Shown here in pieces: positions 1 to 14,284 of a stretch of DNA of 21,943 nucleotides (positions are counted from its first letter, which is position 1; every line of letters starts with the position of its first letter). Below the pieces are notes generated by a model. The model was given only the letters and a program-made list of their open reading frames with translations. It was not told the origin of the DNA and did not search any database. Origin of the DNA: Minisyncoccota bacterium (GTDB taxonomy: Bacteria; Patescibacteriota; Minisyncoccia; Phycocordibacterales; Zambryskibacteraceae); the NCBI GenBank assembly GCA_020059045.1, contig JAGVCW010000022.1, positions 1 through 21,943 on the forward strand, in the 5' to 3' direction. A program made the translations under genes and the position numbers.

Positions 1-201
1 CAGCACCTGTAAGGTGAAAGGTTCCTCTCCTCGGCACAAACAAATACGCAGTTTTTTGTTTGTCCGAAGAAGGTTTACTTTCGGGGAGGACTTGAAAAGG
101 CTGAAGATATCGCACGGAGCTTGCGAGTACGATATGAAGCCTGTACAGCCTCTGTAAGAGGAAAGACTCTTCCAATTCTGTAAGGATCAAGATTCCTCTC
201 C
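1..201 (+). repeat. three imperfect direct repeats of about 28 nt, each carrying a short CTGTAAG hairpin, upstream of the first promoter
   Basis: Units at 1-30 (CAGCACCTGTAAGGTGAAAGGTTCCTCTCC), 146-173 (CAGCCTCTGTAAGAGGAAAGACTCTTCC) and 176-201 (TTCTGTAAGGATCAAGATTCCTCTCC). Units 1 and 2 form 4-bp stems with a TGTAA loop (CACC/GGTG and CCTC/GAGG). Confidence 0.45.
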
Positions 202-223
202 ATTTACACAAAGTCGTTTATTC

Positions 224-251
224 TTGACATTCCTTTTTTTTATGATATTAT
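224..251 (+). promoter_or_regulatory. sigma70-type promoter, TTGACA-16 nt-TATTAT, about 70 nt upstream of the 321 CDS
   Basis: TTGACA at 224-229, TATTAT at 246-251, and AAGGAG as ribosome-binding site 9 nt before the ATG at 321. Confidence 0.6.
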
Positions 252-320
252 GACAGCAGATTCGGTCTTTGAAATCTACTCAAACCGCGCCGCTGCGCAC
301 ACTGCAAAGGAGCAACTTAA

Positions 321-1562
321 ATGAAGCCAGAATCACTCTTCAAGGCCCTTTTCTGGGTCCTGTGGATATTGGCATTACTTTTTAGTCCAGTATCCACAAT
401 CACTATCTCAGCCATAATTCTCTCGGTTGGATGGATTCTCAGGCGAATGGCAGATAAGGAGAAGCTGTGGGGTTTCATACCGGCAAACACATTTGCATTG
501 ATTACTCCTCGAGGAAATAACGATCCTCATGTCACTAAAGAGGAAGTGACAAGCGCCGACATTGTAGATGTTTTACATGCGGTACCTGGCAAAAGATTGG
601 ACAAAACCAGCAAGAATAGCATGGAGTGGACTTTTGTTGATGGCCAAGAGGAACGTGGTTTGATAGGTTGGATTCTTTTCAAAACTCTTGGTATCCAATG
701 GATAGGCTTGTACCGCACTAGACGAACTAACCTTGTAAAGGAGTTTGTCTTTGGGAGAGATGAAAATCAATCAAGTTACATTGTTGCTCCTAAGGACAAG
801 ACAAGTAAAGATGTTTTCTTTTCCGGAAGTCAGGCTGTTATCGTCCCTCGAGTAGAGATGGCTGACGCTCTTGGTCTTACTATTGCTTTCATCACGATCC
901 TGGAGCGAACCCAACCAGTCAAGTCTGTGATGCGGGTTGCGGATTCAAATGCCAATCTGTCTGCCAAAGCACGGAAAAAGGTGCTTCGTAATGCCGGCAC
1001 TGTTACCGCACAAGATTTCATTGGTGGTCCAAACAGTGCTCAACACAAGGAAAAGTTGGAAATAGAAATACGTGATCTTTCGTCCAAGGACGTTGGAATT
1101 ATACCCGAAGCTCTGCAGGAACTCGGGCTGACAATAACTTCTGCCGACCTAGAAGATGTTGATTATGATGCTACGACTAAAGCACTTCTCCAACAAAAGA
1201 CCGCTGCACGAATCGCTGGAGAGGCTAAAGTAATTGAAGCGCTAGCAGATAGAGACGCAAAGTTTGCACGCATCGAAGCTGAAACTGCAGAAGTTAACAA
1301 AGTCATTCTCCCCCAGGCAAGAACTGCTGGAGCTGCCCGTATTCGCGAAGCGATGGCCTACGAGAAAAATAGTACAGTTCGTACGTTTGCACCAGGTGGC
1401 CGCGGTGGTTTAGGGATTATTACAGGAGATACGGAGAACGATTCCACTACTCGTCCTAGAGGCGGGGCAAACCCCGGAAGAGGATTGTCAGCGGCTCCTG
1501 AACCCACAGAACCTGCACAAACGACTCCATCTGATCCTACGGCAGTAGTGCCAAGTAAGTAG
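321..1562 (+). CDS. SPFH/band-7 (stomatin/HflK-like) family membrane protein with an N-terminal TM anchor and a Pro/Thr/Gly-rich C-terminal tail
   Basis: Strong AAGGAG ribosome-binding site. N-terminal hydrophobic helices (FWVLWILALLF...ISAIILSVGWIL). The central region (VIVPRVEMADALGLTIAFITILERT ... QQKTAARIAGEAKVIEALADRDAKFARIEAETAE) resembles the SPFH beta-sheet followed by an Ala/Glu-rich coiled helix. The C-terminal tail is low-complexity. Confidence 0.55.
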   Translation: MKPESLFKALFWVLWILALLFSPVSTITISAIILSVGWILRRMADKEKLWGFIPANTFALITPRGNNDPHVTKEEVTSADIVDVLHAVPGKRLDKTSKNSMEWTFVDGQEERGLIGWILFKTLGIQWIGLYRTRRTNLVKEFVFGRDENQSSYIVAPKDKTSKDVFFSGSQAVIVPRVEMADALGLTIAFITILERTQPVKSVMRVADSNANLSAKARKKVLRNAGTVTAQDFIGGPNSAQHKEKLEIEIRDLSSKDVGIIPEALQELGLTITSADLEDVDYDATTKALLQQKTAARIAGEAKVIEALADRDAKFARIEAETAEVNKVILPQARTAGAARIREAMAYEKNSTVRTFAPGGRGGLGIITGDTENDSTTRPRGGANPGRGLSAAPEPTEPAQTTPSDPTAVVPSK

Positions 1563-1574
1563 ATTGGGATTTCG

Positions 1575-1605
1575 AGCTAAGTACTTTTGTACTTAGCTTT
1601 TTTAA
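1575..1605 (+). terminator. Rho-independent terminator
   Basis: AGCTAAGTAC-tttt-GTACTTAGCT is a perfect 10-bp stem. It is followed by TTTTTTAA, immediately after the stop at 1562. Confidence 0.75.
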
Positions 1606-1608
1606 TAC

Positions 1609-1637
1609 TTGCAATTTAAATATGAATATGGTATAAT
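1609..1637 (+). promoter_or_regulatory. sigma70-type promoter, TTGCAA-17 nt-TATAAT
   Basis: TTGCAA at 1609-1614 and TATAAT at 1632-1637. A GAGGT ribosome-binding site precedes the ATG at 1688. Confidence 0.6.
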
Positions 1638-1687
1638 ACCGCCAGAATGAACATCGTCAAAGACACAACTCTAACCCATGAGGTAAC

Positions 1688-3298
1688 ATGTCTGACCGCA
1701 TAAGGAATTGGTTAGTGCGAGTTATCGACCGCTTGGAGAATCACTTGCGAAATCGTCGGATTAGGAACGCGGCACGAGGGCAGCCTACACAGTCGACTTG
1801 GTGGCCAGCAGGGCTAAGGAGAGACCCAGCGACAATAATGACAGCCCTACTTCTGGCAGTAGTTTCGGTAGTTGCAATTTTTCAGCTTAGCAAACTACCA
1901 TCTGTTATCAGTGGAATTTTCAAATCTGGTGAGGATGCCTGCTTGACTGCTGATCTTGCAAGATCTGCTGGAAGGGTGGACGCAATCGCCGAAGCCGCAT
2001 GTGCGGCACACCGCGAGCCGATAGAGTGGGCAGTATTGGGGCTTCGAGCTCTCGTTGTTATTGTAGTAATTATTATCCTCGTATTAGTGTGGAAATTTGT
2101 TCGTAGGCGATGGATGAGACCTACTGCAGCTCCTACTGCTACAGCAGGAGCTGCAGTAGCAACTCCAAGAGGAGCGGGAACATCAGGAATTTCATGGAAG
2201 TATGTTGGTGTACTAGCTCCTATTGCTGTTTTCTTCATCTTCAGTTGGGCACTGTACGCCTTTTGGGCTGAGTTCAGTGGTGAAGCTGGAAGAAGTTATT
2301 TCTGGAACGAATGGTTCTGGAGCACAAACTTCTGGCTACTGCTCATAATTGCACTAGCAGCATGGATCGGAGCGTTCTTCGTCAGCAATAAAGCTTTCAT
2401 TCCTTATGTTGTGGTGATCGTTATTGTAGCCCTAGCTACAACGTACAAAGACATCCGAGAAGGTCTCGCTGGCAAAGTGGTAGCAGGACCACTGCCGGGT
2501 GTAGTCGTCGCATCCGCGGTTGCTACTTTCCCGGAGAACCCGAGTGATAAGTGGAGAACTGCCGATCTTGATTCGGCTCGTACATATCTCGATTTTCCAC
2601 AGGACTCGATGTTTCTCGAGATCTTTGCGTGTGAGTCGAGCGGTATTCACTACACCGATTCTGCACGCACAGAGGTGTTACGAGGGAGGGTTGATAGCTC
2701 CGATGTGGGTATTGCTCAAAACAATGAGCGAATCCATAGAGATCTACTTGATTCCCTTGCAGCAAGTCCGGACTCAGCGGAATATTATGACATATACACC
2801 ATCCGGGGTAATGTCAATTTCGCTAAACACCTGCGATATCGCAAGATCCGCGCAGGAAGAACCGGTCTTCGGATTTACGAAGACTGGAATGCTTCTCGTC
2901 ACTGTTGGGAAAGACATGAGGGTAGCCGGTCGCGTACTGTCGAGCAACAGGTGGTAGAGTCTCCATTTGGCCCACCTCCATCACCGGATCCAATCAGATT
3001 CGTTGATAGGAAGCTTGTAATCCCAGCCGGAGACACAAGCTGGACAAACACGATAACTAGGCCAAGTATGGAGTATGAAGTCTATTGGAATACGGGAGGA
3101 CCATCATATATCGACCTCATTGCTCTCGTAAATGGGCGAGACACAGTAAGTCTGAATGCGAGCGTTGCATACAGGCCGATACGGAACTTCCGTTCGATAT
3201 CGTATAGGACAAGGGTACCTGTAGAGATCCCTGTTGAAATTTATGTCTGTATGCTCAGGCGTAACGAGGCACGGATCCTAGCACAATGTACTGATTAG
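1688..3298 (+). CDS. hypothetical polytopic membrane protein, about 5-6 TM helices, with an Ala/Thr-rich linker and a roughly 270-aa soluble C-terminal domain
   Basis: The ORF is 536 aa with a ribosome-binding site. Hydrophobic segments: TALLLAVVSVVAIF, LVVIVVIIILVLVW, VGVLAPIAVFFIFSWALYAFW, FWLLLIIALAAWIGAFFV and IPYVVVIVIVALATT. No recognisable catalytic motif. GC is elevated relative to most of the window. Confidence 0.6.
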   Translation: MSDRIRNWLVRVIDRLENHLRNRRIRNAARGQPTQSTWWPAGLRRDPATIMTALLLAVVSVVAIFQLSKLPSVISGIFKSGEDACLTADLARSAGRVDAIAEAACAAHREPIEWAVLGLRALVVIVVIIILVLVWKFVRRRWMRPTAAPTATAGAAVATPRGAGTSGISWKYVGVLAPIAVFFIFSWALYAFWAEFSGEAGRSYFWNEWFWSTNFWLLLIIALAAWIGAFFVSNKAFIPYVVVIVIVALATTYKDIREGLAGKVVAGPLPGVVVASAVATFPENPSDKWRTADLDSARTYLDFPQDSMFLEIFACESSGIHYTDSARTEVLRGRVDSSDVGIAQNNERIHRDLLDSLAASPDSAEYYDIYTIRGNVNFAKHLRYRKIRAGRTGLRIYEDWNASRHCWERHEGSRSRTVEQQVVESPFGPPPSPDPIRFVDRKLVIPAGDTSWTNTITRPSMEYEVYWNTGGPSYIDLIALVNGRDTVSLNASVAYRPIRNFRSISYRTRVPVEIPVEIYVCMLRRNEARILAQCTD

Positions 3299-3305
3299 TA
3301 TGAGT

Positions 3306-3345
3306 GGGCGTAGCTTGCGCAAGCAAGTTATGCCTTTTTTATTGT
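3306..3345 (+). terminator. probable terminator with a short GC palindrome followed by a T6 run
   Basis: GCTTGCGCAAGC palindrome followed by TGCCTTTTTTATT, lying between convergent genes. The stem is weak. Confidence 0.35.
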
Positions 3346-3369: not shown

Positions 3370-4338
3370 TTAATATGAAATTTTATTAACCACTCTTCCC
3401 TCTTTATCAAATAAAGTTATTGTTTCTCTTTCGTTTGCCCACATCTCCCATGACTTATTTAGATAAACTCTCCACTCGGGTAGATAGAAATCTTTGTCTT
3501 CCGAGTGTAGAGCTACACAGGACTCATATGAATAGTGACTTGCAATGAAGGCTTTACACTGGCTTGAGAGCCCGCAAACACCGTCGACACATCCCCGCTC
3601 AATATTGTTTCCTATTCGAGTTGAATCCTTTTCCTTGGGCGTGCGACATGTTGCCATAGATCTGACAAACTTATAACAGTCATCATCCAGACTTTCTACT
3701 CCCACTTCGGCGGCCGGATACGGGCAACTAGTATACATGTATGGGTAGAATTCATAAGTGGGAAGATTTTCAAGATACCCACTGCACTTGTTTACTTTAA
3801 AACTTGTTACAACAAATGGATTCTTGTTCTGGACATCACCAGTTATGATGGCTGCTTTCTCCCCTTTACCAAGAATTATAGGGCCAAGAAAATTTGACCC
3901 TTTAGTAATAAACAATTTTGCAGCTTGAGGTATTACTGCAACATCAGATTGAAGTTTCACTTGGTTCCCACCTAGGTTCGTAAACTTATTTCCTTTGCCA
4001 TTTGAAAGAGACCAACCAGTTATATTTACTCCCTCTACTGGCACATCTTGCGCATATAAATATATGTATTCTCTGGAAGGCTGTATTTCATATGTATTGC
4101 CTGATTGTATAGTAACTTTTCCATACCAAGGAGAAGCGTTGCCCTCGGACAATGTTGTGTTCCCAATTTGGCTACTTGATCCACTGGACGAATAAACACT
4201 TGTAGATGTTGTTCCAATGAGAGGACCTCCCATACTTGGGATAAACTTGCCCCGGCCAAGAAGCATAAGAAATATCACTGCCACTATCCCTATGATAAAC
4301 AGTACGTCTTCCCCTTTTGAGTAATTTGCTTTAAACAT
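3370..4338 (-). CDS. hypothetical N-terminally anchored extracellular protein with a Ser-rich linker and a Cys-rich C-terminal domain, positioned directly downstream of the pilin-like array
   Basis: The ORF is 322 aa. N-terminal TM (LFIIGIVAVIFLMLL), then SSSGSSS linker. There are 9 Cys in the last ~130 aa (CSGY, CPYP, DDDCYKF, ATCRTP, GCVDGVCGLSSQCKAF, ESCVALH). A putative own promoter, TTGTAA-17-TATTCT, lies on the minus strand in 4339-4412. Confidence 0.6.
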   Translation of the reverse strand: MFKANYSKGEDVLFIIGIVAVIFLMLLGRGKFIPSMGGPLIGTTSTSVYSSSGSSSQIGNTTLSEGNASPWYGKVTIQSGNTYEIQPSREYIYLYAQDVPVEGVNITGWSLSNGKGNKFTNLGGNQVKLQSDVAVIPQAAKLFITKGSNFLGPIILGKGEKAAIITGDVQNKNPFVVTSFKVNKCSGYLENLPTYEFYPYMYTSCPYPAAEVGVESLDDDCYKFVRSMATCRTPKEKDSTRIGNNIERGCVDGVCGLSSQCKAFIASHYSYESCVALHSEDKDFYLPEWRVYLNKSWEMWANERETITLFDKEGRVVNKISY

Positions 4339-4492: not shown

Positions 4493-4759
4493 TCAAAACG
4501 GAAATCTACCTGAAATATTTACACCGATTGTGTCCATAACAATCCTTATGATTCCGTAGACTCCGAACATTATAAACATTCCAATAACACCCCATAGCAT
4601 GTTTTTCTGACCTTGCTCTCGGTTCTTAGCATCTTCTGTATTAGTAAGGAATTGGAATATCCCCCACAGAAATACTAGGAGTGCTATCGCAAACATAAGG
4701 AGAATGAGTGGGTTTAAGATAAACTGATTTATCTTACCCAAAAACGGAGCAATGGACAT
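4493..4759 (-). CDS. TrbC/VirB2-like pilin-family small membrane protein, paralog 6, lacking the signal peptide and ectodomain
   Basis: Two TM helices separated by a charged loop (FLWGIFQFLTNTEDAKNREQGQKNMLWGVIGMFIMFGVYGII) match the family core of the upstream paralogs. It lies 15 nt after paralog 5. Confidence 0.5.
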   Translation of the reverse strand: MSIAPFLGKINQFILNPLILLMFAIALLVFLWGIFQFLTNTEDAKNREQGQKNMLWGVIGMFIMFGVYGIIRIVMDTIGVNISGRFPF

Positions 4760-4774
4760 GAGAAATGACTACCT

Positions 4775-5122
4775 CTATATTGCTGGGGGCTGGATTATTC
4801 CGCCACCACCCGTACCTGTTTCTGTCTGAAGAAGCTGAACGATCCCCCATACTGAAACCATAATGAATATTGCAACTATTCCCCAAATCATGATTTTCTT
4901 TCCTTCTTCTCTTTTGTCTTCATTTCCTGCGGCAAGAACAAATTTCATTAAACCCCATAGGAAAAACAGGAATGCGAGGCCGATGACGACTGGTGTTGCC
5001 ATATTGATAAGACCCCTGATCTGACTGATAACGCTCTGGGTATAGTTAAAAGTTGGATTCCCTACAGCAAGCACAATTGCTGGAAGTAGGAAACTGGCGC
5101 CAAGAGCAATAAACTTTTTCAT
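4775..5122 (-). CDS. TrbC/VirB2-like pilin-family protein with signal peptide, short ectodomain and TM hairpin; paralog 5
   Basis: Signal peptide MKKFIALGASFLLPAIVLAVG. Core PVVIGLAFLFFLWGLMKFVLAAGNEDKREEGKKIMIWGIVAIFIMVSVWGIV. Gly-rich C-terminal tail. Own minus-strand promoter at 5180-5208. Confidence 0.65.
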   Translation of the reverse strand: MKKFIALGASFLLPAIVLAVGNPTFNYTQSVISQIRGLINMATPVVIGLAFLFFLWGLMKFVLAAGNEDKREEGKKIMIWGIVAIFIMVSVWGIVQLLQTETGTGGGGIIQPPAI

Positions 5123-5179
5123 TGTTTGATAAAATTAAATAATAAAATACGTTTTAGTTATACCTAGTGGTATAGGCTT

Positions 5180-5208
5180 ATAATACAAGGATTTAATGCA
5201 AAATTCAA
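5180..5208 (-). promoter_or_regulatory. internal sigma70-type promoter, TTGAAT-17-TATTAT on the minus strand, inside the pilin array
   Basis: Reverse complement of 5203-5208 is TTGAAT, and of 5180-5185 is TATTAT, with a 17-nt spacer. Located in the 117-nt gap between paralogs 4 and 5. Confidence 0.5.
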
Positions 5209-5239
5209 GGGAAGTGTGGATAAAAAAGTGAAAGACAGA

Positions 5240-5557
5240 TTACGGTCCAATGATATAAGTGCTAAGCCCAAACTCAAATCTAAGTAACCAGACTATCCCC
5301 CAAACAGATACCATTATAAAAAGTGCTATAACACCCCAAGTCATTAACCTCTTTCCTTCTGTTCTTTTCTCTTCGTTACCTGAATTTAAGATAAAGTTTG
5401 CTAGCCCCCATAGGAAAAATAAGAAGGCGAGGCCGATGACGACTGGAAAAGCTAAGTTTAATACATTTCTGAATTCTGTGATTACTCCCTGTATACCTTG
5501 AGCCGCAACAAAAACGGGTAGAAAGGATGTGAGAATTAGAAAAAATCTATAGATCAT
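5240..5557 (-). CDS. TrbC/VirB2-like pilin-family protein, paralog 4
   Basis: Signal peptide MIYRFFLILTSFLPVFVAAQG. Core PVVIGLAFLFFLWGLANFILNSGNEEKRTEGKRLMTWGVIALFIMVSVWGIV is near-identical to paralog 5. A roughly 45-nt stretch (about 5404-5447) is about 85-90% identical to the corresponding stretch of paralog 5 (about 4949-4992). Confidence 0.65.
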   Translation of the reverse strand: MIYRFFLILTSFLPVFVAAQGIQGVITEFRNVLNLAFPVVIGLAFLFFLWGLANFILNSGNEEKRTEGKRLMTWGVIALFIMVSVWGIVWLLRFEFGLSTYIIGP

Positions 5558-5562
5558 TTAAG

Positions 5563-6024
5563 TTATGAAGTTCGAAGAAATGGAAACGCCAAATTACCCC
5601 CAAAAAAATCACTAAAAAGAATACTTACAATTCCCCAAACTGATACCATTACAAAGAGTCCTATCGCCCCCCAGAACATAAGACTCTTGCCCGCACTTAC
5701 TTTCTTCTCATCTCCTGCTGCCAAAACAAATCTCATAAGTCCCCAGAGAAAGACGAAAAACGCTAATCCTATGACAACTGGTATAAGTGAATTAATTAGA
5801 CCCACGAGTAAGCAAACAAATTCTGTGAAGTTACCAGGTTGCGTGCCTGGAGCAGTATTCCCATATGAGGGACACACTGAAGAAGAGGCCGGAGATGGAG
5901 AAGTGTTAACGGGGATAGGAAAACCGGCAAAAGCTTGCACGGGTAGAGATAGAATAATAATTAATATTACAAAGCAAGCTACGTAACTCCTCACCAAATT
6001 TATTTTGAATCTACTCGTATACAT
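5563..6024 (-). CDS. TrbC/VirB2-like pilin-family protein with an extended Pro/Ser-rich ectodomain carrying a Cys pair; paralog 3
   Basis: Signal peptide, then SPSPASSSVCPSYGNTAPGTQPGNFTEFVC with two Cys, then core PVVIGLAFFVFLWGLMRFVLAAGDEKKVSAGKSLMFWGAIGLFVMVSVWGIV. AAGGA ribosome-binding site. Lies 5 nt from paralog 4. Confidence 0.65.
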   Translation of the reverse strand: MYTSRFKINLVRSYVACFVILIIILSLPVQAFAGFPIPVNTSPSPASSSVCPSYGNTAPGTQPGNFTEFVCLLVGLINSLIPVVIGLAFFVFLWGLMRFVLAAGDEKKVSAGKSLMFWGAIGLFVMVSVWGIVSILFSDFFGGNLAFPFLRTS

Positions 6025-6027
6025 ATT

Positions 6028-6420
6028 TTATGGTCCTTGAAGTTGGTTCACTGTTGCTTGTATAGCCAAAGCTATTGCCCATGAGCCTAGAAGTATAAGG
6101 GCTCCAATGACTGAGGAGAAAAACGCACTTTTCGCACTCTTAAGTTTAGTTTCATCTCCACGTGCAGTAACAAACAGAAACCCTGCATAAATAATAGCAA
6201 GTGTAACTATTACCCCTCCAATAGGAAGTATCACGTCATTAATAACAGCAACTATGAAGTCGTAGAGTGTACCAGGAGCATTTCGGAGAGGATTGGGAAT
6301 ACAGACACTACCTTGAGGACATGGCGCGGATCCACCTGTATTACCCGCAAACACAATTCCTGGAATATAAACTACCAAGATAATGAGAAGAGAGAGAAGC
6401 ATTGTAAAAAGTTTTTTCAT
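6028..6420 (-). CDS. TrbC/VirB2-like pilin-family protein, the more classical VirB2-like variant with a Cys pair; paralog 2
   Basis: Signal peptide MKKLFTMLLSLLIILVVYIPGIVFAG. The ectodomain holds CPQGSVC. TM hairpin: IVTLAIIYAGFLFVTARGDETKLKSAKSAFFSSVIGALILLGSWAIALAI. Lies 3 nt from paralog 3. Confidence 0.6.
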   Translation of the reverse strand: MKKLFTMLLSLLIILVVYIPGIVFAGNTGGSAPCPQGSVCIPNPLRNAPGTLYDFIVAVINDVILPIGGVIVTLAIIYAGFLFVTARGDETKLKSAKSAFFSSVIGALILLGSWAIALAIQATVNQLQGP

Positions 6421-6445
6421 AAATAATTAATTCTTGCTTTAATAC

Positions 6446-6850
6446 TTAACCAAAAAGTGTAAACGGTTGATCAAGGAGAGCAACTGCAATAAATTTCACA
6501 ATAAGCCACGCGGCAAGTATAAAGAAGAAACCAATCATAGTATTTGTAAATATTCCTTTTGCCCTCTTAATTTTATCATCTGCTCCCCCTGCTGTAACCA
6601 TGAGAAAACCAGCTACGATAAACGCTATTGCTGCGAGTGGTACAGAGTAAAGTATTATGATGTTCATAATATTTATACCCAATGTGATTAGTGAGCCAAA
6701 GGTACAGGGGTCATCAAACTTGTTTTTAGTAGTATTAAAATTTGTATTGCAAACTATTAAGTTCGTATCCACAGCGAGAGTTGTAAGTGGCACGAGAAAT
6801 ACTACAATAATCAAAAAGAAACTTAGAGAAAATGTTAGTGAAGATTTCAT
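6446..6850 (-). CDS. TrbC/VirB2-like pilin-family protein, paralog 1; its start overlaps the stop of the upstream solute-binding-protein gene
   Basis: Signal peptide, an ectodomain with two Cys (LIVCNTNF...DDPCTFG), and the hairpin AAIAFIVAGFLMVTAGGADDKIKRAKGIFTNTMIGFFFILAAWLIV. The ATG (6848-6850) overlaps the TAA (6850-6852) of the 6850-8139 gene as TAATG. Confidence 0.6.
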   Translation of the reverse strand: MKSSLTFSLSFFLIIVVFLVPLTTLAVDTNLIVCNTNFNTTKNKFDDPCTFGSLITLGINIMNIIILYSVPLAAIAFIVAGFLMVTAGGADDKIKRAKGIFTNTMIGFFFILAAWLIVKFIAVALLDQPFTLFG

Positions 6851-12352: not shown

Positions 12353-12453
12353 AGTTGCTCTAATTATAGCAGATTTGGTTCTAAAATAAAAGTGGGAAGC
12401 GTCTTGTTTTAGGCCGTATTTTATCGTTTCCTAGAGATATCCACATATTCTGC

Positions 12454-12481
12454 TTGACATATAAAACGGGTATGCTATAAT
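12454..12481 (+). promoter_or_regulatory. consensus sigma70 promoter, TTGACA-16 nt-TATAAT, driving the candidate ncRNA
   Basis: TTGACA at 12454-12459 and TATAAT at 12476-12481. This is the best promoter match in the window. No CDS follows. Confidence 0.6.
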
Positions 12482-12487
12482 CTATAA

Positions 12488-12684
12488 ACGTTATCTTTGA
12501 ATAACTAGCAAGGGGGATCGGCAGATGCCTTACCCGCATATGCCGGCCACAGACAGAGGGCAAAACCTGTCTGTGGCCGCTGACATTTTGAACCACGTGC
12601 AACATATATAGTTCAAACGTTTCCCGCGGGGCCTACAGCTTCGCGTCAAGCCACCAACCATTGTGTCGGTGGCTTTCTCTTTAT
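12488..12684 (+). ncRNA. candidate structured small RNA of unknown family, about 200 nt, with its own promoter and terminator
   Basis: GC-rich island in an AT-rich intergenic region. Perfect 13-bp stem CGGCCACAGACAG/CTGTCTGTGGCCG (12544-12556 / 12567-12579). Additional hairpins: GTTAT/ATAAC, GGCAGATGCC, TGAAC/GTTCA, the CCCGCGGG palindrome. Ends in the terminator AAGCCACC-loop-GGTGGCTT followed by a U-tract. There is no ORF of 60 aa or more on the plus strand. Confidence 0.35.
12648..12684 (+). terminator. terminator hairpin with an interrupted U-tract
   Basis: AAGCCACC (12648-12655), a 12-nt loop, GGTGGCTT (12668-12675), then TCTCTTTAT. Confidence 0.5.
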
Positions 12685-12697
12685 GTATAGTTTTCGT

Positions 12698-12726
12698 TTG
12701 ACTTGAAGCAGAAATAGTAGTATGAT
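12698..12726 (+). promoter_or_regulatory. sigma70-type promoter, TTGACT-17-TATGAT
   Basis: TTGACT at 12698-12703 and TATGAT at 12721-12726. AAGGAG at 12765-12770 lies 7 nt before the GTG at 12778. Confidence 0.5.
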
Positions 12727-12777
12727 CACAGAAGTTCCTAGAGATCTTCCCAATCGCTTTTACCAAGGAGCGTGCCC

Positions 12778-12933
12778 GTGCTTGAAAAAATTGCAATCCT
12801 TCTTGTGTTACTTTGGGTCATCGGAATGATGTTTGAATTCACTGCAGGTGGACTTATACACTTTCTGCTTGTACCTGCAGCAATAATGCTTATAGCTGGT
12901 TTAAGCATTAATCAGAAGAATGAATCTTCTTAG
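12778..12933 (+). CDS. small membrane protein of the lmo0937-like family, 51 aa; absent from the ORF track
   Basis: GTG start with a strong AAGGAG ribosome-binding site. Translation: MLEKIAILLVLLWVIGMMFEFTAGGLIHFLLVPAAIMLIAGLSINQKNESS. The LLWxxG...GGLIHxLLV motif is characteristic of the ~50-aa lmo0937-family proteins. Followed by the terminator at 12941-12966. Confidence 0.5.
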   Translation: MLEKIAILLVLLWVIGMMFEFTAGGLIHFLLVPAAIMLIAGLSINQKNESS

Positions 12934-12940
12934 CATACGT

Positions 12941-12966
12941 AGCTTCACATTTGTGAGGCTTTTTTA
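12941..12966 (+). terminator. Rho-independent terminator
   Basis: AGCTTCAC-attt-GTGAGGCT followed by TTTTTT. Confidence 0.6.
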
Positions 12967-13159
12967 ATATAGAAAATCTGCTTTAGATGTAGATATGGTA
13001 GACAAAAAAGTTTTTTTATATAGAATATCCTTACCCTGTAAGACAGGACTTATCAATTAATAGCGTTTTCATAACCCCTAGCCTGAGAATATCCTGCTTA
13101 GCAAGGCGAGGAAGAAAACAAGGTAGTCGTATAGAAACGTACGACTATCCAAGAAAAAT

Positions 13160-14284
13160 ATGAAAGAGAAAGATACTAAGGAGGAAGTGCAGGACGAAGA
13201 AGGTGTAGAAGCGAAGAAAGATAGTGTGATGACAGCATTCTTGTCTAAGAGTGCGACTCCCCCATCTGTCGATGATCTAGTAGAAGGTGTAGTTATAGGT
13301 ATAGACAAGTCAACAGTTTATATAGATTTACCACCATTTGGCACAGGAATAATCTACGGCCGAGAGTTTTTGAACGCGCGTGACATAATCAAAAAAATAA
13401 ACCTTGGTGACTCTGTGGCAGGTAAAGTAGTTGCTCTTGATAACGCAGAAGGTTATATAGAAATTTCTCTAAAGGAAGCACGCCAAGCACTCATATGGGG
13501 TGAAGCAGAGGACGCGATTAGAGACAAGAAGGTGTTTGAACTTCCTGTCACGGATGCAAACAAAGGTGGGCTCATCATAGTATGGCAAGGTATTCAAGGA
13601 TTTCTCCCAGCTTCACAGCTTAAACCAGAGCATTACCCACGTGTCGGCGACGGAGACAAAGACAAGATTCTCGACGAATTGAGAAAACTCGTAGGACAAA
13701 AAATTTCTGTCTCTATAATCGGAGCAGTTCCAAAGGAAGGAAAGCTTATTTTCTCGGAAAAAGACGGGGAGAGTAAGGATAAGGGTGCAATTATAGACAA
13801 GTACACTCTTGGTGATGAAGTACCTGGTGAAGTAACTGGCATTGTAGACTTCGGAGTGTTTGTAAAGCTTGAGGAAGGGCTTGAGGGTCTTGTGCACATT
13901 TCAGAAATGGATTGGGCACTAGTAGAGAATCCTAGATCAATGTACAAAGTCAGTGACAAAGTTAAAGTAAAAATTATTGAAATTAAGGACGGCAAGGTTT
14001 CCCTATCTATCAAAGCTCTGAAACCAAACCCTTGGGTTGAAGCAGCCAAGAAGTACAAGAAGGACGATGAAGTCAAAGGTGTGATCATTAAATTCAACAA
14101 GCATGGAGCTCTTGCATCAATTGAAGAAGGTGTGGCTGGACTTGTACACATTTCAGAATTCGGAAGCGAAGATAAATTGAGAGAGAAACTTGAACTTGGA
14201 AAAACATATGATTTTAAGATTACCCTCTTTGATCCTAAAGAGCAGAAAATGGCTCTCTCGTTTGTAGAAAAAGGGAAGGAATAG
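13160..14284 (+). CDS. rpsA: 30S ribosomal protein S1, short four-S1-domain form
   Basis: Repeated S1 domains with a GxV and L/I-VHISE signature: GEVTGIVDFGVFVKLEEGLEGLVHISEM and VKGVIIKFNKHGALASIEEGVAGLVHISEF. A 374-aa short form. Confidence 0.85.
   Translation: MKEKDTKEEVQDEEGVEAKKDSVMTAFLSKSATPPSVDDLVEGVVIGIDKSTVYIDLPPFGTGIIYGREFLNARDIIKKINLGDSVAGKVVALDNAEGYIEISLKEARQALIWGEAEDAIRDKKVFELPVTDANKGGLIIVWQGIQGFLPASQLKPEHYPRVGDGDKDKILDELRKLVGQKISVSIIGAVPKEGKLIFSEKDGESKDKGAIIDKYTLGDEVPGEVTGIVDFGVFVKLEEGLEGLVHISEMDWALVENPRSMYKVSDKVKVKIIEIKDGKVSLSIKALKPNPWVEAAKKYKKDDEVKGVIIKFNKHGALASIEEGVAGLVHISEFGSEDKLREKLELGKTYDFKITLFDPKEQKMALSFVEKGKE

What the first reader, a model, noticed from the sequence alone, without database searches (positions are those of the whole stretch)
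1..3345. A GC-elevated 3.3-kb block at the window edge carries an SPFH-family protein and a large polytopic membrane protein, each with a strong promoter and a clean terminator
Spot counts give about 45-65% GC here, against about 33-40% in the pilin, gyrA and intergenic regions. The block contains a TM-anchored SPFH/band-7-like protein with a low-complexity tail. A 536-aa protein follows, with about 5-6 TM helices plus a roughly 270-aa soluble C-terminal domain of unknown function. Each has a near-consensus sigma70 promoter and its own terminator. The compositional shift and the independent, strongly promoted units suggest a horizontally acquired island that may extend leftward out of the window. 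SPFH proteins are recurring components of membrane stress, phage-defence and scaffold systems.
Basis: partly seen in the sequence, partly recalled or inferred. Interest (0 to 1): 0.5.

Follow-up and report, generated by a model that had tools for sequence, protein, structure and literature searches.

The report
Saccharibacterial SPFH plus membrane lysozyme gene pair
The GC-richer block is a scaffold protein (SPFH) and a membrane-anchored lysozyme-like enzyme that occupy the same chromosomal slot in related Saccharibacteria, so it is not a newly inserted island, although the slot's contents diverge unusually fast and run GC-rich in almost every relative.

Summary
The features are real, but the GC figures were overstated: 1-3345 is 47.0% GC against 40.1% for the rest, not 45-65%. 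ORF1 (321-1562) is a membrane-anchored, stomatin-like SPFH protein. ORF2 (1688-3298) has about 5 TM helices. Its "unknown" C-terminal part is a divergent lysozyme-like domain (SLT_3/GH22-like, invariant Glu316) followed by a beta-rich domain. Both promoters and both terminators are present and conserved in relatives.

The window is the whole contig, so nothing extends leftward. In 13 related loci (12 distinct, nearly all labelled Saccharibacteria where a label exists) the order where covered is tRNA array, SPFH, membrane protein, VirB2-like pilin array, SBP, methyltransferase, gyrA. There is no integrase, phage or defence signature. A strain-specific acquired island is not supported.

In the window the GC excess comes mainly from amino-acid composition: four-fold-site GC is 0.33 against 0.29. 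The pair is GC3-elevated in 12 of 13 loci (up to 0.66 against 0.33). Between two close relatives (gyrA 90% identical) the pair shares no detectable DNA similarity.

Best reading: a conserved envelope module in a fixed, hypervariable slot. Function is inferred, not shown.

The parts
1..198 (+). Three decayed copies (1-27, 146-172, 172-198) of an element that resembles the 3' end of tRNA-Leu(UAG). Each has a CTGTAAG hairpin followed by a T-arm-like TTCCTCTCC. They are the remnant of the tRNA array that precedes the SPFH gene in relatives.
   Evidence: the repeat finder found the copies. They align with the tRNA-Leu(UAG) 3' halves and with the L011 and L001 duplicates. Intact arrays are present in L004, L007, L009, L012 and L014. 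ARAGORN and Rfam call no intact tRNA in the window.
224..251 (+). Promoter-like site of ORF1: TTGACA, 16 nt, TATTAT, with an extended -10 TG.
   Evidence: scores it 11/12. The same TTGAC(A/T)...TGnTATnAT layout lies upstream of the SPFH gene in most of the 12 loci printed (clear in about 9).
287..305 (+). Short GC hairpin in the 5' UTR, just upstream of the Shine-Dalgarno AAAGGAG. Support is weak.
   Evidence: Four consensus pairs are kept, with changed sequence, in 8 of 10 relatives.
321..1562 (+). ORF1, 413 aa. It has an N-terminal membrane anchor (aa ~10-39), an SPFH/Band 7 domain (aa ~180-309, nt 858-1247), an Ala/Glu-rich helix and a G/P/T-rich low-complexity tail (aa ~365-413).
   Evidence: The AAGGAG Shine-Dalgarno 8 nt upstream of the ATG at 321 is conserved in relatives. 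The JGI gene call (371 aa) clips the anchor.
1574..1599 (+). Intrinsic-terminator-like hairpin after ORF1: 11 bp stem, 4-nt loop, then a T run.
   Evidence: The same hairpin-then-promoter layout follows the SPFH stop codon in 10 of 10 loci printed.
1609..1637 (+). Promoter-like site of ORF2: TTGCAA, 17 nt, TATAAT, with TG.
   Evidence: scores it 10/12. It is conserved in relatives.
1688..3298 (+). ORF2, 536 aa. It has an Arg-rich N-terminus, five TM helices (aa 49-254, nt 1832-2449), a lysozyme-like domain (aa ~300-412, nt 2585-2923; Glu316, Asp339, Gly341, Gln344, Trp400) and a beta-rich C-terminal domain (aa ~440-536, nt 3005-3295).
   Evidence: The start at 1688 is supported by a GAGG Shine-Dalgarno and by the conserved W-PAGL motif that lies upstream of the JGI start.
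3306..3335 (+). Intrinsic-terminator-like hairpin after ORF2: 13 pairs, GCAA loop, then a T run.
4493..6850 (-). Context only. Six tandem genes for VirB2-like T4SS_pilin paralogues that converge on the pair. This array is the conserved right-hand neighbour of the slot.
   Evidence: Pfam PF18895. Synteny. Pilin arrays in CPR are described in bioRxiv 10.1101/2025.01.22.634366.

Best explanation
Shown. The block consists of two separately transcribed genes that form a conserved pair in Saccharibacteria.

The first gene encodes a stomatin-like SPFH protein with an N-terminal membrane anchor.

The second encodes a polytopic membrane protein. Its tail contains a divergent lysozyme-like domain of the SLT_3/GH22-like type. 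The catalytic Glu is invariant in the family, and this protein also has the second Asp. A beta-rich domain follows.

The pair occupies a fixed chromosomal slot. A tRNA array ending in tRNA-Leu(UAG) lies on one side. The VirB2-like pilin array, then SBP, methyltransferase and gyrA, lie on the other. The genes were therefore not newly inserted in this genome.

The slot's content is hypervariable. In some relatives the second gene lacks the lysozyme domain. Close relatives share no DNA similarity across the pair. The pair is GC3-enriched relative to its flanks in nearly all low-GC relatives.

In this window the enrichment is the weakest seen, and it comes mostly from Gly/Ala/Arg/Pro-rich protein composition.

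Inferred from topology rules. The tail of ORF2 lies outside the cell.

Inferred mechanism. The lysozyme-like domain cuts peptidoglycan at the cell surface. The target is either the cell's own wall, to let the neighbouring pilus or secretion apparatus through, or the wall of the host bacterium. The SPFH protein forms a membrane-associated oligomeric scaffold on the cytoplasmic face that corrals or regulates the polytopic partner, as SPFH proteins do with HflK/C-FtsH and with stomatin-NfeD.

Inferred evolution. The hypervariability and GC excess are best explained by repeated allelic replacement or recombination at this slot in naturally competent bacteria, possibly with GC-biased gene conversion.
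For: Protein identity.
- ORF1 matches Band_7 above the Pfam cutoff, and its family profile hits stomatin.
- phmmer of ORF2 against 1.84 billion representatives finds 66 homologues whose conserved core is aa 300-412.
- In the alignment, E316, G341, Q344 and W400 are invariant.
- Five of 25 family members match PF18896 SLT_3. One of them is the positional orthologue in L001 (E=8.6e-8), which aligns with ORF2 at E=2e-10.
- The family profile hits C-type lysozymes in the PDB at E=4.6e-7.
- hhalign against hen lysozyme gives E=1.3e-4 and places E35 on E316 and D52 on D339.

Topology.
- There are five TM segments after an Arg-rich N-terminus.

Fixed slot.
- The same gene order recurs in L001-L015.
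- tRNA arrays lie upstream.

Hypervariability.
- L002 and L008 are 90% identical in gyrA, 80% in SBP and 87% in the pilin, but only 42.5% in SPFH and 44% in the slot-2 protein.
- Their flanks are 70-77% identical at DNA level, with no detectable similarity across the pair.

Composition.
- Pair GC3 exceeds flank GC3 in 12 of 13 loci. The mean difference is +0.138 and Wilcoxon p=0.00024.
- L004 shows 0.66 against 0.33, with both G and C raised at four-fold sites.
- The window shows four-fold GC of 0.33 against 0.29 and GARP residues of 0.31 against 0.23.

Regulatory layout.
- The promoter and terminator layout is conserved.

Background.
- Saccharibacteria are naturally competent (abstract of the preprint version, PMC10187176, of the Cell paper PMC10633639).
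- VirB2-like pilin arrays are known in CPR and are essential in one cultured strain.
Against: - ORF2 itself matches no Pfam model, even at E<=10, and no PDB sequence. The lysozyme assignment rests on family-level profiles.
- The AlphaFold model built from a six-sequence alignment has pLDDT 42.7, so the fold is not confirmed.
- The Asp equivalent to D52 is replaced by Ala in 5 of 25 family members.
- The two genes are separate transcription units with a terminator between them, so co-regulation is not evident.
- The 22 kb window contains no VirB4 or other T4SS core gene, so the link to secretion rests only on adjacency to the pilin array.
- No experiment links SPFH to the hydrolase.
- The cause of the GC excess is unresolved. 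Recombination, biased gene conversion and selection on codon usage or mRNA cannot be separated with these data.
- All relatives come from MAGs or short contigs.
Confidence: 0.6

Rival explanations
1. The block is a recently acquired genomic island, integrated at a tRNA gene and brought in from a higher-GC donor.
For: - GC is 47% against 40%, and the block has the lowest raw tetranucleotide correlation with the rest of the contig.
- Decayed repeats resembling tRNA 3' ends lie directly upstream, and intact tRNA arrays occupy that place in relatives.
- In L004 the same two genes look compositionally foreign, with four-fold GC of 0.62 against 0.32.
- SPFH similarity is incongruent with flank similarity in L002 and L008.
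Against: - The pair is present at the same position in every related locus found, 13 of 13.
- There is no integrase, transposase or other mobility gene.
- Nothing matches PADLOC, PHROGs or viral contigs.
- In the window, four-fold-site GC is nearly native (0.33 against 0.29) and the excess is mainly in amino-acid composition.
- After composition correction, the tetranucleotide signature is no more deviant than that of the pilin array.
- The GC-rich stretch does not extend leftward in relatives.
Confidence: 0.12
2. The GC excess has nothing to do with gene flow. It is a by-product of protein composition, namely Ala/Gly/Arg/Pro-rich membrane and low-complexity segments, together with codon bias in two strongly expressed genes.
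For: - In the window, GC2 and GARP content carry most of the shift.
- Both genes have near-consensus extended -10 promoters that are conserved in relatives.
- The highly expressed S1 gene also prefers C over T in two-fold codons. C/(C+T) is 0.55 in the window and 0.67 in L005, against 0.37-0.38 for other genes.
Against: - In relatives the shift is large at four-fold sites and affects G as well as C. L004 has G 0.27 and C 0.34, against 0.13 and 0.18.
- S1 does not raise G at four-fold sites (0.08-0.12).
- infB, gyrA and S1 do not approach the pair's GC3.
- This rival does not explain the loss of all DNA similarity between L002 and L008 within otherwise collinear sequence.
Confidence: 0.2
3. The pair is an SPFH-based anti-phage defence or stress module, in which the lysozyme-like protein acts as an abortive-infection effector.
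For: - SPFH proteins occur in some candidate defence systems.
- Hypervariable, GC-deviant loci are typical of defence islands.
Against: - Neither protein matches any PADLOC model.
- No neighbouring gene is a defence gene. The neighbours are pilins, SBP, gyrA and tRNAs.
- The pair is fixed in position across the lineage rather than sporadic.
- The predicted outward-facing topology of the lysozyme domain fits wall remodelling better than suicide from within.
Confidence: 0.05

Closest known systems
Stomatin / SPFH (Band 7, PF01145) membrane scaffolds, for example P. horikoshii stomatin PH1511, E. coli QmcA and HflK/C
   Same: - ORF1 has an N-terminal membrane anchor.
- It has an SPFH domain that matches above the Pfam threshold.
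- It has an Ala/Glu-rich helix that aligns with the stomatin coiled-coil region.
- Its gene sits next to a gene for a membrane protein with a C-terminal beta-rich domain. That arrangement recalls SPFH-NfeD pairs. This comparison is from my own knowledge.
   Different: - Identity is low and the match covers only the C-terminal two-thirds of the Pfam model.
- ORF1 has a long insertion between the anchor and the SPFH core, and a low-complexity tail.
- The partner protein matches no NfeD model.
- The partner is transcribed separately, with a terminator between the two genes.
PF18896 SLT_3 'lysozyme like domain', within the lysozyme-like superfamily that includes GH22 C-type lysozymes and SLT lytic transglycosylases
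   Same: - The conserved core CES...D-G-x-x-Q-(I/N)-N...N-x-x-x-A-K...D-W is present.
- The Glu is invariant.
- The family profile hits C-type lysozymes.
- Five of 25 family members and the L001 orthologue match SLT_3.
   Different: - ORF2 itself falls below detection by the Pfam model.
- The domain is fused to a five-helix membrane anchor and to an extra C-terminal beta domain.
- The second carboxylate is not universal in the family.
VirB1-type cell-wall hydrolases of type IV secretion systems, for example the membrane-anchored PrgK, TcpG and CwlT of Gram-positive conjugation systems (named from my own knowledge; the general description is in bioRxiv 10.1101/2025.01.22.634366)
   Same: - ORF2 is a membrane-anchored lysozyme/SLT-type domain.
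- Its gene lies beside VirB2-like pilin genes.
- The proposed role, opening the wall locally for a trans-envelope apparatus, is the same.
   Different: - The window contains no VirB4, VirB6 or coupling protein.
- ORF2 has no CHAP or NlpC/P60 second domain.
- Its anchor is polytopic rather than a single helix.
- In the one cultured strain that has been studied, the T4SS-linked lysozyme (SEML1_0006; PF18013/PF01832) belongs to a different family.
tRNA-linked genomic islands
   Same: - The slot lies next to a tRNA array that carries partial duplicates of tRNA 3' ends.
- The composition deviates from the surroundings.
- Content is replaced between relatives.
   Different: - There is no integrase.
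- The pair is fixed in all relatives.
- The block is only two genes long.
- The window's synonymous sites are close to native.

Membership tests
SPFH / Band 7 (PF01145) | Match to the family HMM above the curated threshold | tested here: met
   ORF1 scores 31.2 bits against a cutoff of 23.6, E=2.8e-7, over aa 180-309 and model positions 54-174 of 176. The homologues in L001, L002 and L003 also match.
SPFH / Band 7 (PF01145) | N-terminal membrane anchor that precedes the SPFH domain | tested here: met
   A hydrophobic segment at aa 16-34 scores KD 2.26. It is conserved in homologues and is followed by basic residues.
SPFH / Band 7 (PF01145) | Assembly into a large oligomeric ring or cage | not testable with these tools
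   This needs biochemistry or cryo-EM. The only indication here is that the Ala/Glu-rich helix aligns with the stomatin coiled coil.
Lysozyme-like superfamily / PF18896 SLT_3 | Match of the protein itself to the family HMM | tested here: not met
   ORF2 and its C-terminal fragments match no lysozyme or SLT model at E<=10.
Lysozyme-like superfamily / PF18896 SLT_3 | Homology shown through intermediates or profiles | tested here: met
   - The L001 positional orthologue matches SLT_3 at 8.6e-8 and aligns with ORF2 at 2e-10.
- Five of 25 family members match SLT_3.
- The family profile hits C-type lysozymes at 4.6e-7.
- hhalign against hen lysozyme gives 1.3e-4.
Lysozyme-like superfamily / PF18896 SLT_3 | Catalytic Glu at the end of the first helix | tested here: met
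   E316 is invariant in 25 of 25 sequences and aligns with E35 of hen lysozyme.
Lysozyme-like superfamily / PF18896 SLT_3 | Lysozyme fold | tested here: inconclusive
   The AlphaFold2 model has mean pLDDT 42.7 and is unusable. Its secondary structure is helical over aa 23-143 of the fragment, which is compatible with the fold.
Genomic island (horizontally acquired) | Composition deviates from the host genome | tested here: met
   GC is 47.0% against 40.1%. The deviation is modest at synonymous sites, with four-fold GC of 0.33 against 0.29.
Genomic island (horizontally acquired) | Mobility genes such as an integrase or transposase | tested here: not met
   No such domain appears in any ORF of the window ((orf283)). 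There are no PHROGs hits.
Genomic island (horizontally acquired) | Sporadic presence or absence among related genomes | tested here: not met
   An SPFH gene plus a membrane-protein gene is present at the same slot in 13 of 13 related loci.
Genomic island (horizontally acquired) | Insertion next to a tRNA gene, with a flanking direct repeat | tested here: inconclusive
   The window holds only decayed tRNA-like repeats, all on the left side. Relatives carry intact tRNA arrays there. I did not see a matching repeat to the right of ORF2, and I did not search for one systematically.
VirB1-type T4SS wall hydrolase | Encoded within a T4SS cluster that includes VirB4 | tested here: not met
   The 22 kb window has no VirB4, VirB6 or coupling protein. 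Only the VirB2-like pilin array is adjacent.
NfeD partner of SPFH proteins | Match to the NfeD C-terminal OB-fold domain (PF01957) | tested here: not met
   The C-terminal beta domain matches no Pfam model at E<=10.
Known anti-phage defence systems | Match to a PADLOC model | tested here: not met
   ORF1, ORF2 and the 322-aa neighbour give no hits.

The most novel reading that the evidence does not exclude
The SPFH and membrane-protein pair is a swappable surface and envelope cassette. It sits at a fixed slot next to tRNA-Leu, beside the pilin array. Saccharibacteria exchange it by transformation and homologous recombination. GC-biased gene conversion keeps it GC-rich. It helps decide which host bacteria an epibiont can attach to or feed on, with the outward-facing lysozyme-like domain acting on the host wall.
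Probability: 0.15. Interest if true: 0.75.

Novelty: new variant of a known kind. Interest (0 to 1): 0.42.

Why it matters
Saccharibacteria live attached to other bacteria, and the genes behind that lifestyle are mostly unknown.

This analysis gives names to two 'hypothetical' proteins that sit next to the VirB2-like pilin array. A similar array is essential in the one strain tested genetically.

The two proteins form a conserved pair: an SPFH scaffold and a membrane-anchored lysozyme-like enzyme. The pair diverges far faster than its surroundings and has a distinct base composition in nearly every relative examined.

That pattern is typical of genes at a host interface. It gives experimenters a short list of testable residues (E316, D339) and a defined locus to knock out or swap.

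It is also a caution for island finders. A GC shift next to tRNA remnants can mark a fixed but fast-turning slot rather than a new insertion.

Tried and rejected
- Exact-sequence look-ups of both proteins found nothing, because the public gene calls use later start codons.
- Word-indexed homologue search for ORF2 found only itself. The exhaustive phmmer search was needed.
- ORF2 and its fragments gave only noise against Pfam at E<=10, and the C-terminal 272-aa fragment only noise against PDB sequences.
- The profile search with the trimmed soluble-domain alignment returned only six proteins.
- AlphaFold2 on that six-sequence alignment gave pLDDT 42.7. I therefore ran no fold search, since it would have been meaningless.
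- PADLOC, NCBIfam and PHROGs returned no hits.
- The viral-contig scan with the SPFH alignment found no relatives.
- The metagenome scan returned only three loci and did not recover a close relative or a leftward extension of this contig.
- Rfam and ARAGORN found no RNA gene in the window.
- I considered that the 27-nt repeats might be transcription-factor sites or a novel small RNA. I rejected that in favour of decayed tRNA 3'-end copies once the intact tRNA arrays appeared in relatives.
- I considered a chimeric contig as the cause of the GC step. I rejected it because the junction between ORF2 and the pilin array recurs in 10 independent assemblies.
- I considered NfeD homology for the C-terminal beta domain. 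No sequence evidence supports it.

Full report
**1. What is in the sequence**

The window is the entire contig. The public cluster records for both proteins give a longest contig of 21,943 bp.

Apart from the block, the window carries ordinary housekeeping and envelope genes:
- six tandem T4SS_pilin paralogues
- a solute-binding protein
- a methyltransferase
- gyrA
- a metallo-beta-lactamase-fold protein
- ribosomal protein S1
- pth, lepB and a HisRS-like protein
- ybeY, ftsA and the start of ftsZ

Of the five related loci recovered from species genomes, four carry the label Candidatus Saccharibacteria and one is labelled Parcubacteria.

**2. The composition claim**

Positions 1-3345 are 47.0% GC and the rest of the contig is 40.1%. 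The 500-nt windows are 44-50% inside the block and 35-46% outside it. The direction is right and the block is the GC maximum of the contig.

Splitting by codon position changes the picture.
- GC2 is 0.45 for ORF1 and 0.49 for ORF2, against about 0.37 elsewhere.
- GC3 is 0.39 and 0.43, against a mean of 0.34. Some other genes also reach 0.40.
- Gly+Ala+Arg+Pro make up 31% of residues, against 23% elsewhere.
- GC at four-fold-degenerate sites is 0.33 against 0.29.

The tetranucleotide profile correlates least with the rest of the contig (r=0.585). Once base composition is factored out, the block (0.56) is as atypical as the pilin array (0.50-0.56) and no more. In this genome, therefore, the shift is mostly a matter of protein composition.

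**3. The two proteins**

ORF1 (321-1562, 413 aa):
- It begins with a hydrophobic anchor followed by basic residues.
- It matches Pfam Band_7 above threshold, and its family profile hits archaeal and human stomatin.
- Its G/P/T-rich tail is missing or shorter in homologues.
- The ATG at 321 has an AAGGAG Shine-Dalgarno that is conserved in relatives. The public gene call starts 42 codons later and loses the anchor.

ORF2 (1688-3298, 536 aa):
- It has an Arg-rich N-terminus and five clear TM segments.
- By the positive-inside rule the roughly 270-aa tail lies outside the cell. This is an inference.
- On its own the protein matches nothing in Pfam or the PDB.

An exhaustive phmmer search found 66 homologues of ORF2, with a shared core at aa 300-412. 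The evidence that this core is lysozyme-like is as follows.
- E316, G341, Q344 and W400 are invariant in the alignment.
- Five of 25 members match PF18896 SLT_3.
- The positional orthologue in L001 is one of them and aligns with ORF2 at E=2e-10.
- The family profile hits C-type lysozymes at 4.6e-7.
- hhalign against hen lysozyme puts E35 on E316 and D52 on D339.

The 'domain of unknown function' is therefore a divergent lysozyme-like domain. It is followed by a domain of about 100 aa that is predicted to be all-beta. The structure model was too poor (pLDDT 42.7) to confirm either fold.

**4. Regulatory elements**

The count of consensus promoter hits is not above chance.

In all ten relatives printed, the SPFH stop codon is followed by a GC hairpin with a T run. 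A TTGAC(A/T)-17-TGnTATAAT promoter comes next, then a short leader with a Shine-Dalgarno. A similar promoter precedes the SPFH gene. That conservation is the real evidence that the genes are two separate, strongly promoted units.

**5. Is it an island?**

Thirteen related loci were recovered by three routes, representing 12 distinct places because L010 duplicates L009:
- homologues of ORF1
- homologues of ORF2
- pattern scans of species genomes and metagenomes

All have an SPFH gene followed by a membrane-protein gene in the same orientation. In the 10 distinct loci that extend past the pair, the convergent pilin array comes next. SBP, methyltransferase (not detected in L002, L008 or L015), gyrA, a small hypothetical gene, the MBL-fold gene and S1 follow, as far as each locus reaches.

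On the left, five loci carry a tRNA array that ends with tRNA-Leu(UAG). The members of the array are drawn from Cys, Leu-UAA, Lys-CUU, Gly-CCC and Leu-UAG. A sixth locus starts inside that last tRNA.

The three 27-nt repeats at the left end of the window are decayed copies of a tRNA-Leu 3'-end-like element. That element is better preserved in L011 and L001.

The window contains no integrase or other mobility gene. There are no PADLOC, PHROGs or NCBIfam matches, and no relative of the SPFH protein in viral contigs. The pair is therefore ancestral at this position. A strain-specific insertion is not supported, and so is a chimeric contig.

**6. What is unusual**

Three things stand out.

First, the second gene varies. 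It carries the lysozyme domain in the window, L001, L004, L009/L010, L011 and L012. In L002, L003, L005-L008, L014 and L015 it is a shorter membrane protein (185-311 aa) with a C-terminal segment that looks strand-rich by eye and no lysozyme domain. The shorter proteins show only weak similarity to the anchor region of the family.

Second, divergence is extreme and incongruent. L002 and L008 are 90% identical in gyrA, 80% in SBP and 87% in the adjacent pilin. They are only 42.5% identical in SPFH and 44% in the second protein. At DNA level their flanks align at 70-77%. Nothing aligns from about 17 nt into the SPFH gene to about 95 nt before the end of the second gene.

Third, the pair is GC3-richer than its flanks in 12 of 13 loci. 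The mean difference is +0.138 and Wilcoxon p=0.00024.

| Locus | Pair GC3 | Flank GC3 |
|---|---|---|
| L004 | 0.66 | 0.33 |
| L009 | 0.57 | 0.33 |
| L011 | 0.52 | 0.32 |
| L012 | 0.52 | 0.31 |
| L014 | 0.58 | 0.35 |
| window | 0.41 | 0.34 |

In L004 both G and C are raised at four-fold sites. The highly expressed S1 gene shows only a C-over-T preference. The two loci whose flanking genes already have GC3 near 0.6 (L006 and L007) show essentially no difference. The window has the lowest pair GC3 of the 13 loci and one of the smallest excesses over its flanks.

**7. Interpretation**

The pair is a conserved envelope module that sits in a fixed but fast-turning slot.

I infer that the lysozyme-like domain cuts peptidoglycan outside the membrane. 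I also infer that the SPFH protein organises or restrains its polytopic neighbour, by analogy with HflK/C-FtsH and stomatin-NfeD. That analogy comes from established knowledge of those families and was not tested here.

The position beside the VirB2-like pilin array suggests a VirB1-like helper role or action on the host wall. Such arrays are described in CPR and are essential in Southlakia epibionticum. However, the window has no T4SS core gene, and the T4SS-linked lysozyme of the cultured strain belongs to a different family.

The hypervariability and the recurrent GC excess fit repeated allelic replacement or recombination. Saccharibacteria are naturally competent. GC-biased gene conversion may also contribute. 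That idea comes from general knowledge and was not tested here. Expression-linked codon bias may play a part but cannot explain the loss of DNA similarity.

No paper in the searched library mentions SPFH together with Saccharibacteria.

**8. Verdict**

- The island interpretation holds only in a modified form.
- Both proteins belong to known superfamilies, in an undescribed pairing and architecture.
- The comparative pattern is worth a specialist's attention. Function and cause remain inferred.

Noticed in passing
window 1-27, 146-172, 172-198; L011 116-182; L001 1-52 and 196-242: The window has three decayed copies of an element that resembles the 3' end of tRNA-Leu(UAG): a CTGTAAG hairpin followed by a T-arm-like stretch. 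L011 carries a 20-nt exact duplicate of the tRNA's 3' end about 130 nt downstream of the real one. These look like scars of repeated recombination at the tRNA array and may explain why several contigs break here.
   Followed up: partly
window ~88-150; L012 3225-3290: A conserved inter-tRNA hairpin element (GAAAAGGYTRAG-ATATCG...CGATAT-GAARCCTGTAYAG) is shared by the window and L012. It matches no Rfam family. Its function is unknown.
   Followed up: no
L001 49-214; L012 3411-3560: After tRNA-Lys(CUU), or its remnant, both loci share a structured-looking stretch: a terminator-like hairpin followed by TGTSCGAGRCGGAGC...CGAGCSRGGRTCGCG. It has no Rfam match and could be an undescribed small RNA or a leader.
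   Followed up: no
window ~287-305 and the equivalent place in L001, L002, L003, L004, L008, L009, L014: A short GC hairpin lies immediately 5' of the Shine-Dalgarno of the SPFH gene. Pairing is kept while the sequence changes in 8 of 10 relatives. There are only four consensus pairs, so support is weak.
   Followed up: partly
window 3370-4338 (-); L004 8803-9756 (+): The 322-aa secreted or anchored protein with a weak lamin-tail-domain match lies to the right of the pair on the minus strand in the window. In L004 it lies to the left on the plus strand (43% identity). It is not detected in the other loci, including the seven with several kb of sequence upstream of the pair. This is a local rearrangement around the slot.
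   Followed up: partly
window 321-446 and 1688-1837: The public gene calls start both proteins too late: 371 aa instead of 413, and 486 aa instead of 536. This removes the SPFH membrane anchor and the conserved W-PAGL motif of ORF2.
   Followed up: yes
window 4493-6850 (-): Six tandem T4SS_pilin (VirB2-like) paralogues are present. After composition correction their tetranucleotide signature is as atypical as that of the block. The same array of 5-7 genes recurs in all relatives that extend that far.
   Followed up: partly
L004 2471-7741: In the closest species genome, the region further left of the slot is a type IV pilus cluster: a PilB-like ATPase, PilC, N-methyl pilins and an LVIVD-repeat protein. 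A VanY-type carboxypeptidase gene sits alongside.
   Followed up: no
L002 811-1287, L005 8943-9215, L008 8834-9358 (all on the minus strand): A second small GC-rich ORF (GC 0.51-0.55) lies two genes upstream of the SPFH gene in these loci. It is separated from the SPFH gene by a small ORF of normal GC (weak DoxX match in L002). I did not examine it.
   Followed up: no
window 12353-13160: An intergenic gap of about 800 nt lies between the MBL-fold gene and the S1 gene. It contains only short, unsupported ORFs and has no Rfam match.
   Followed up: no
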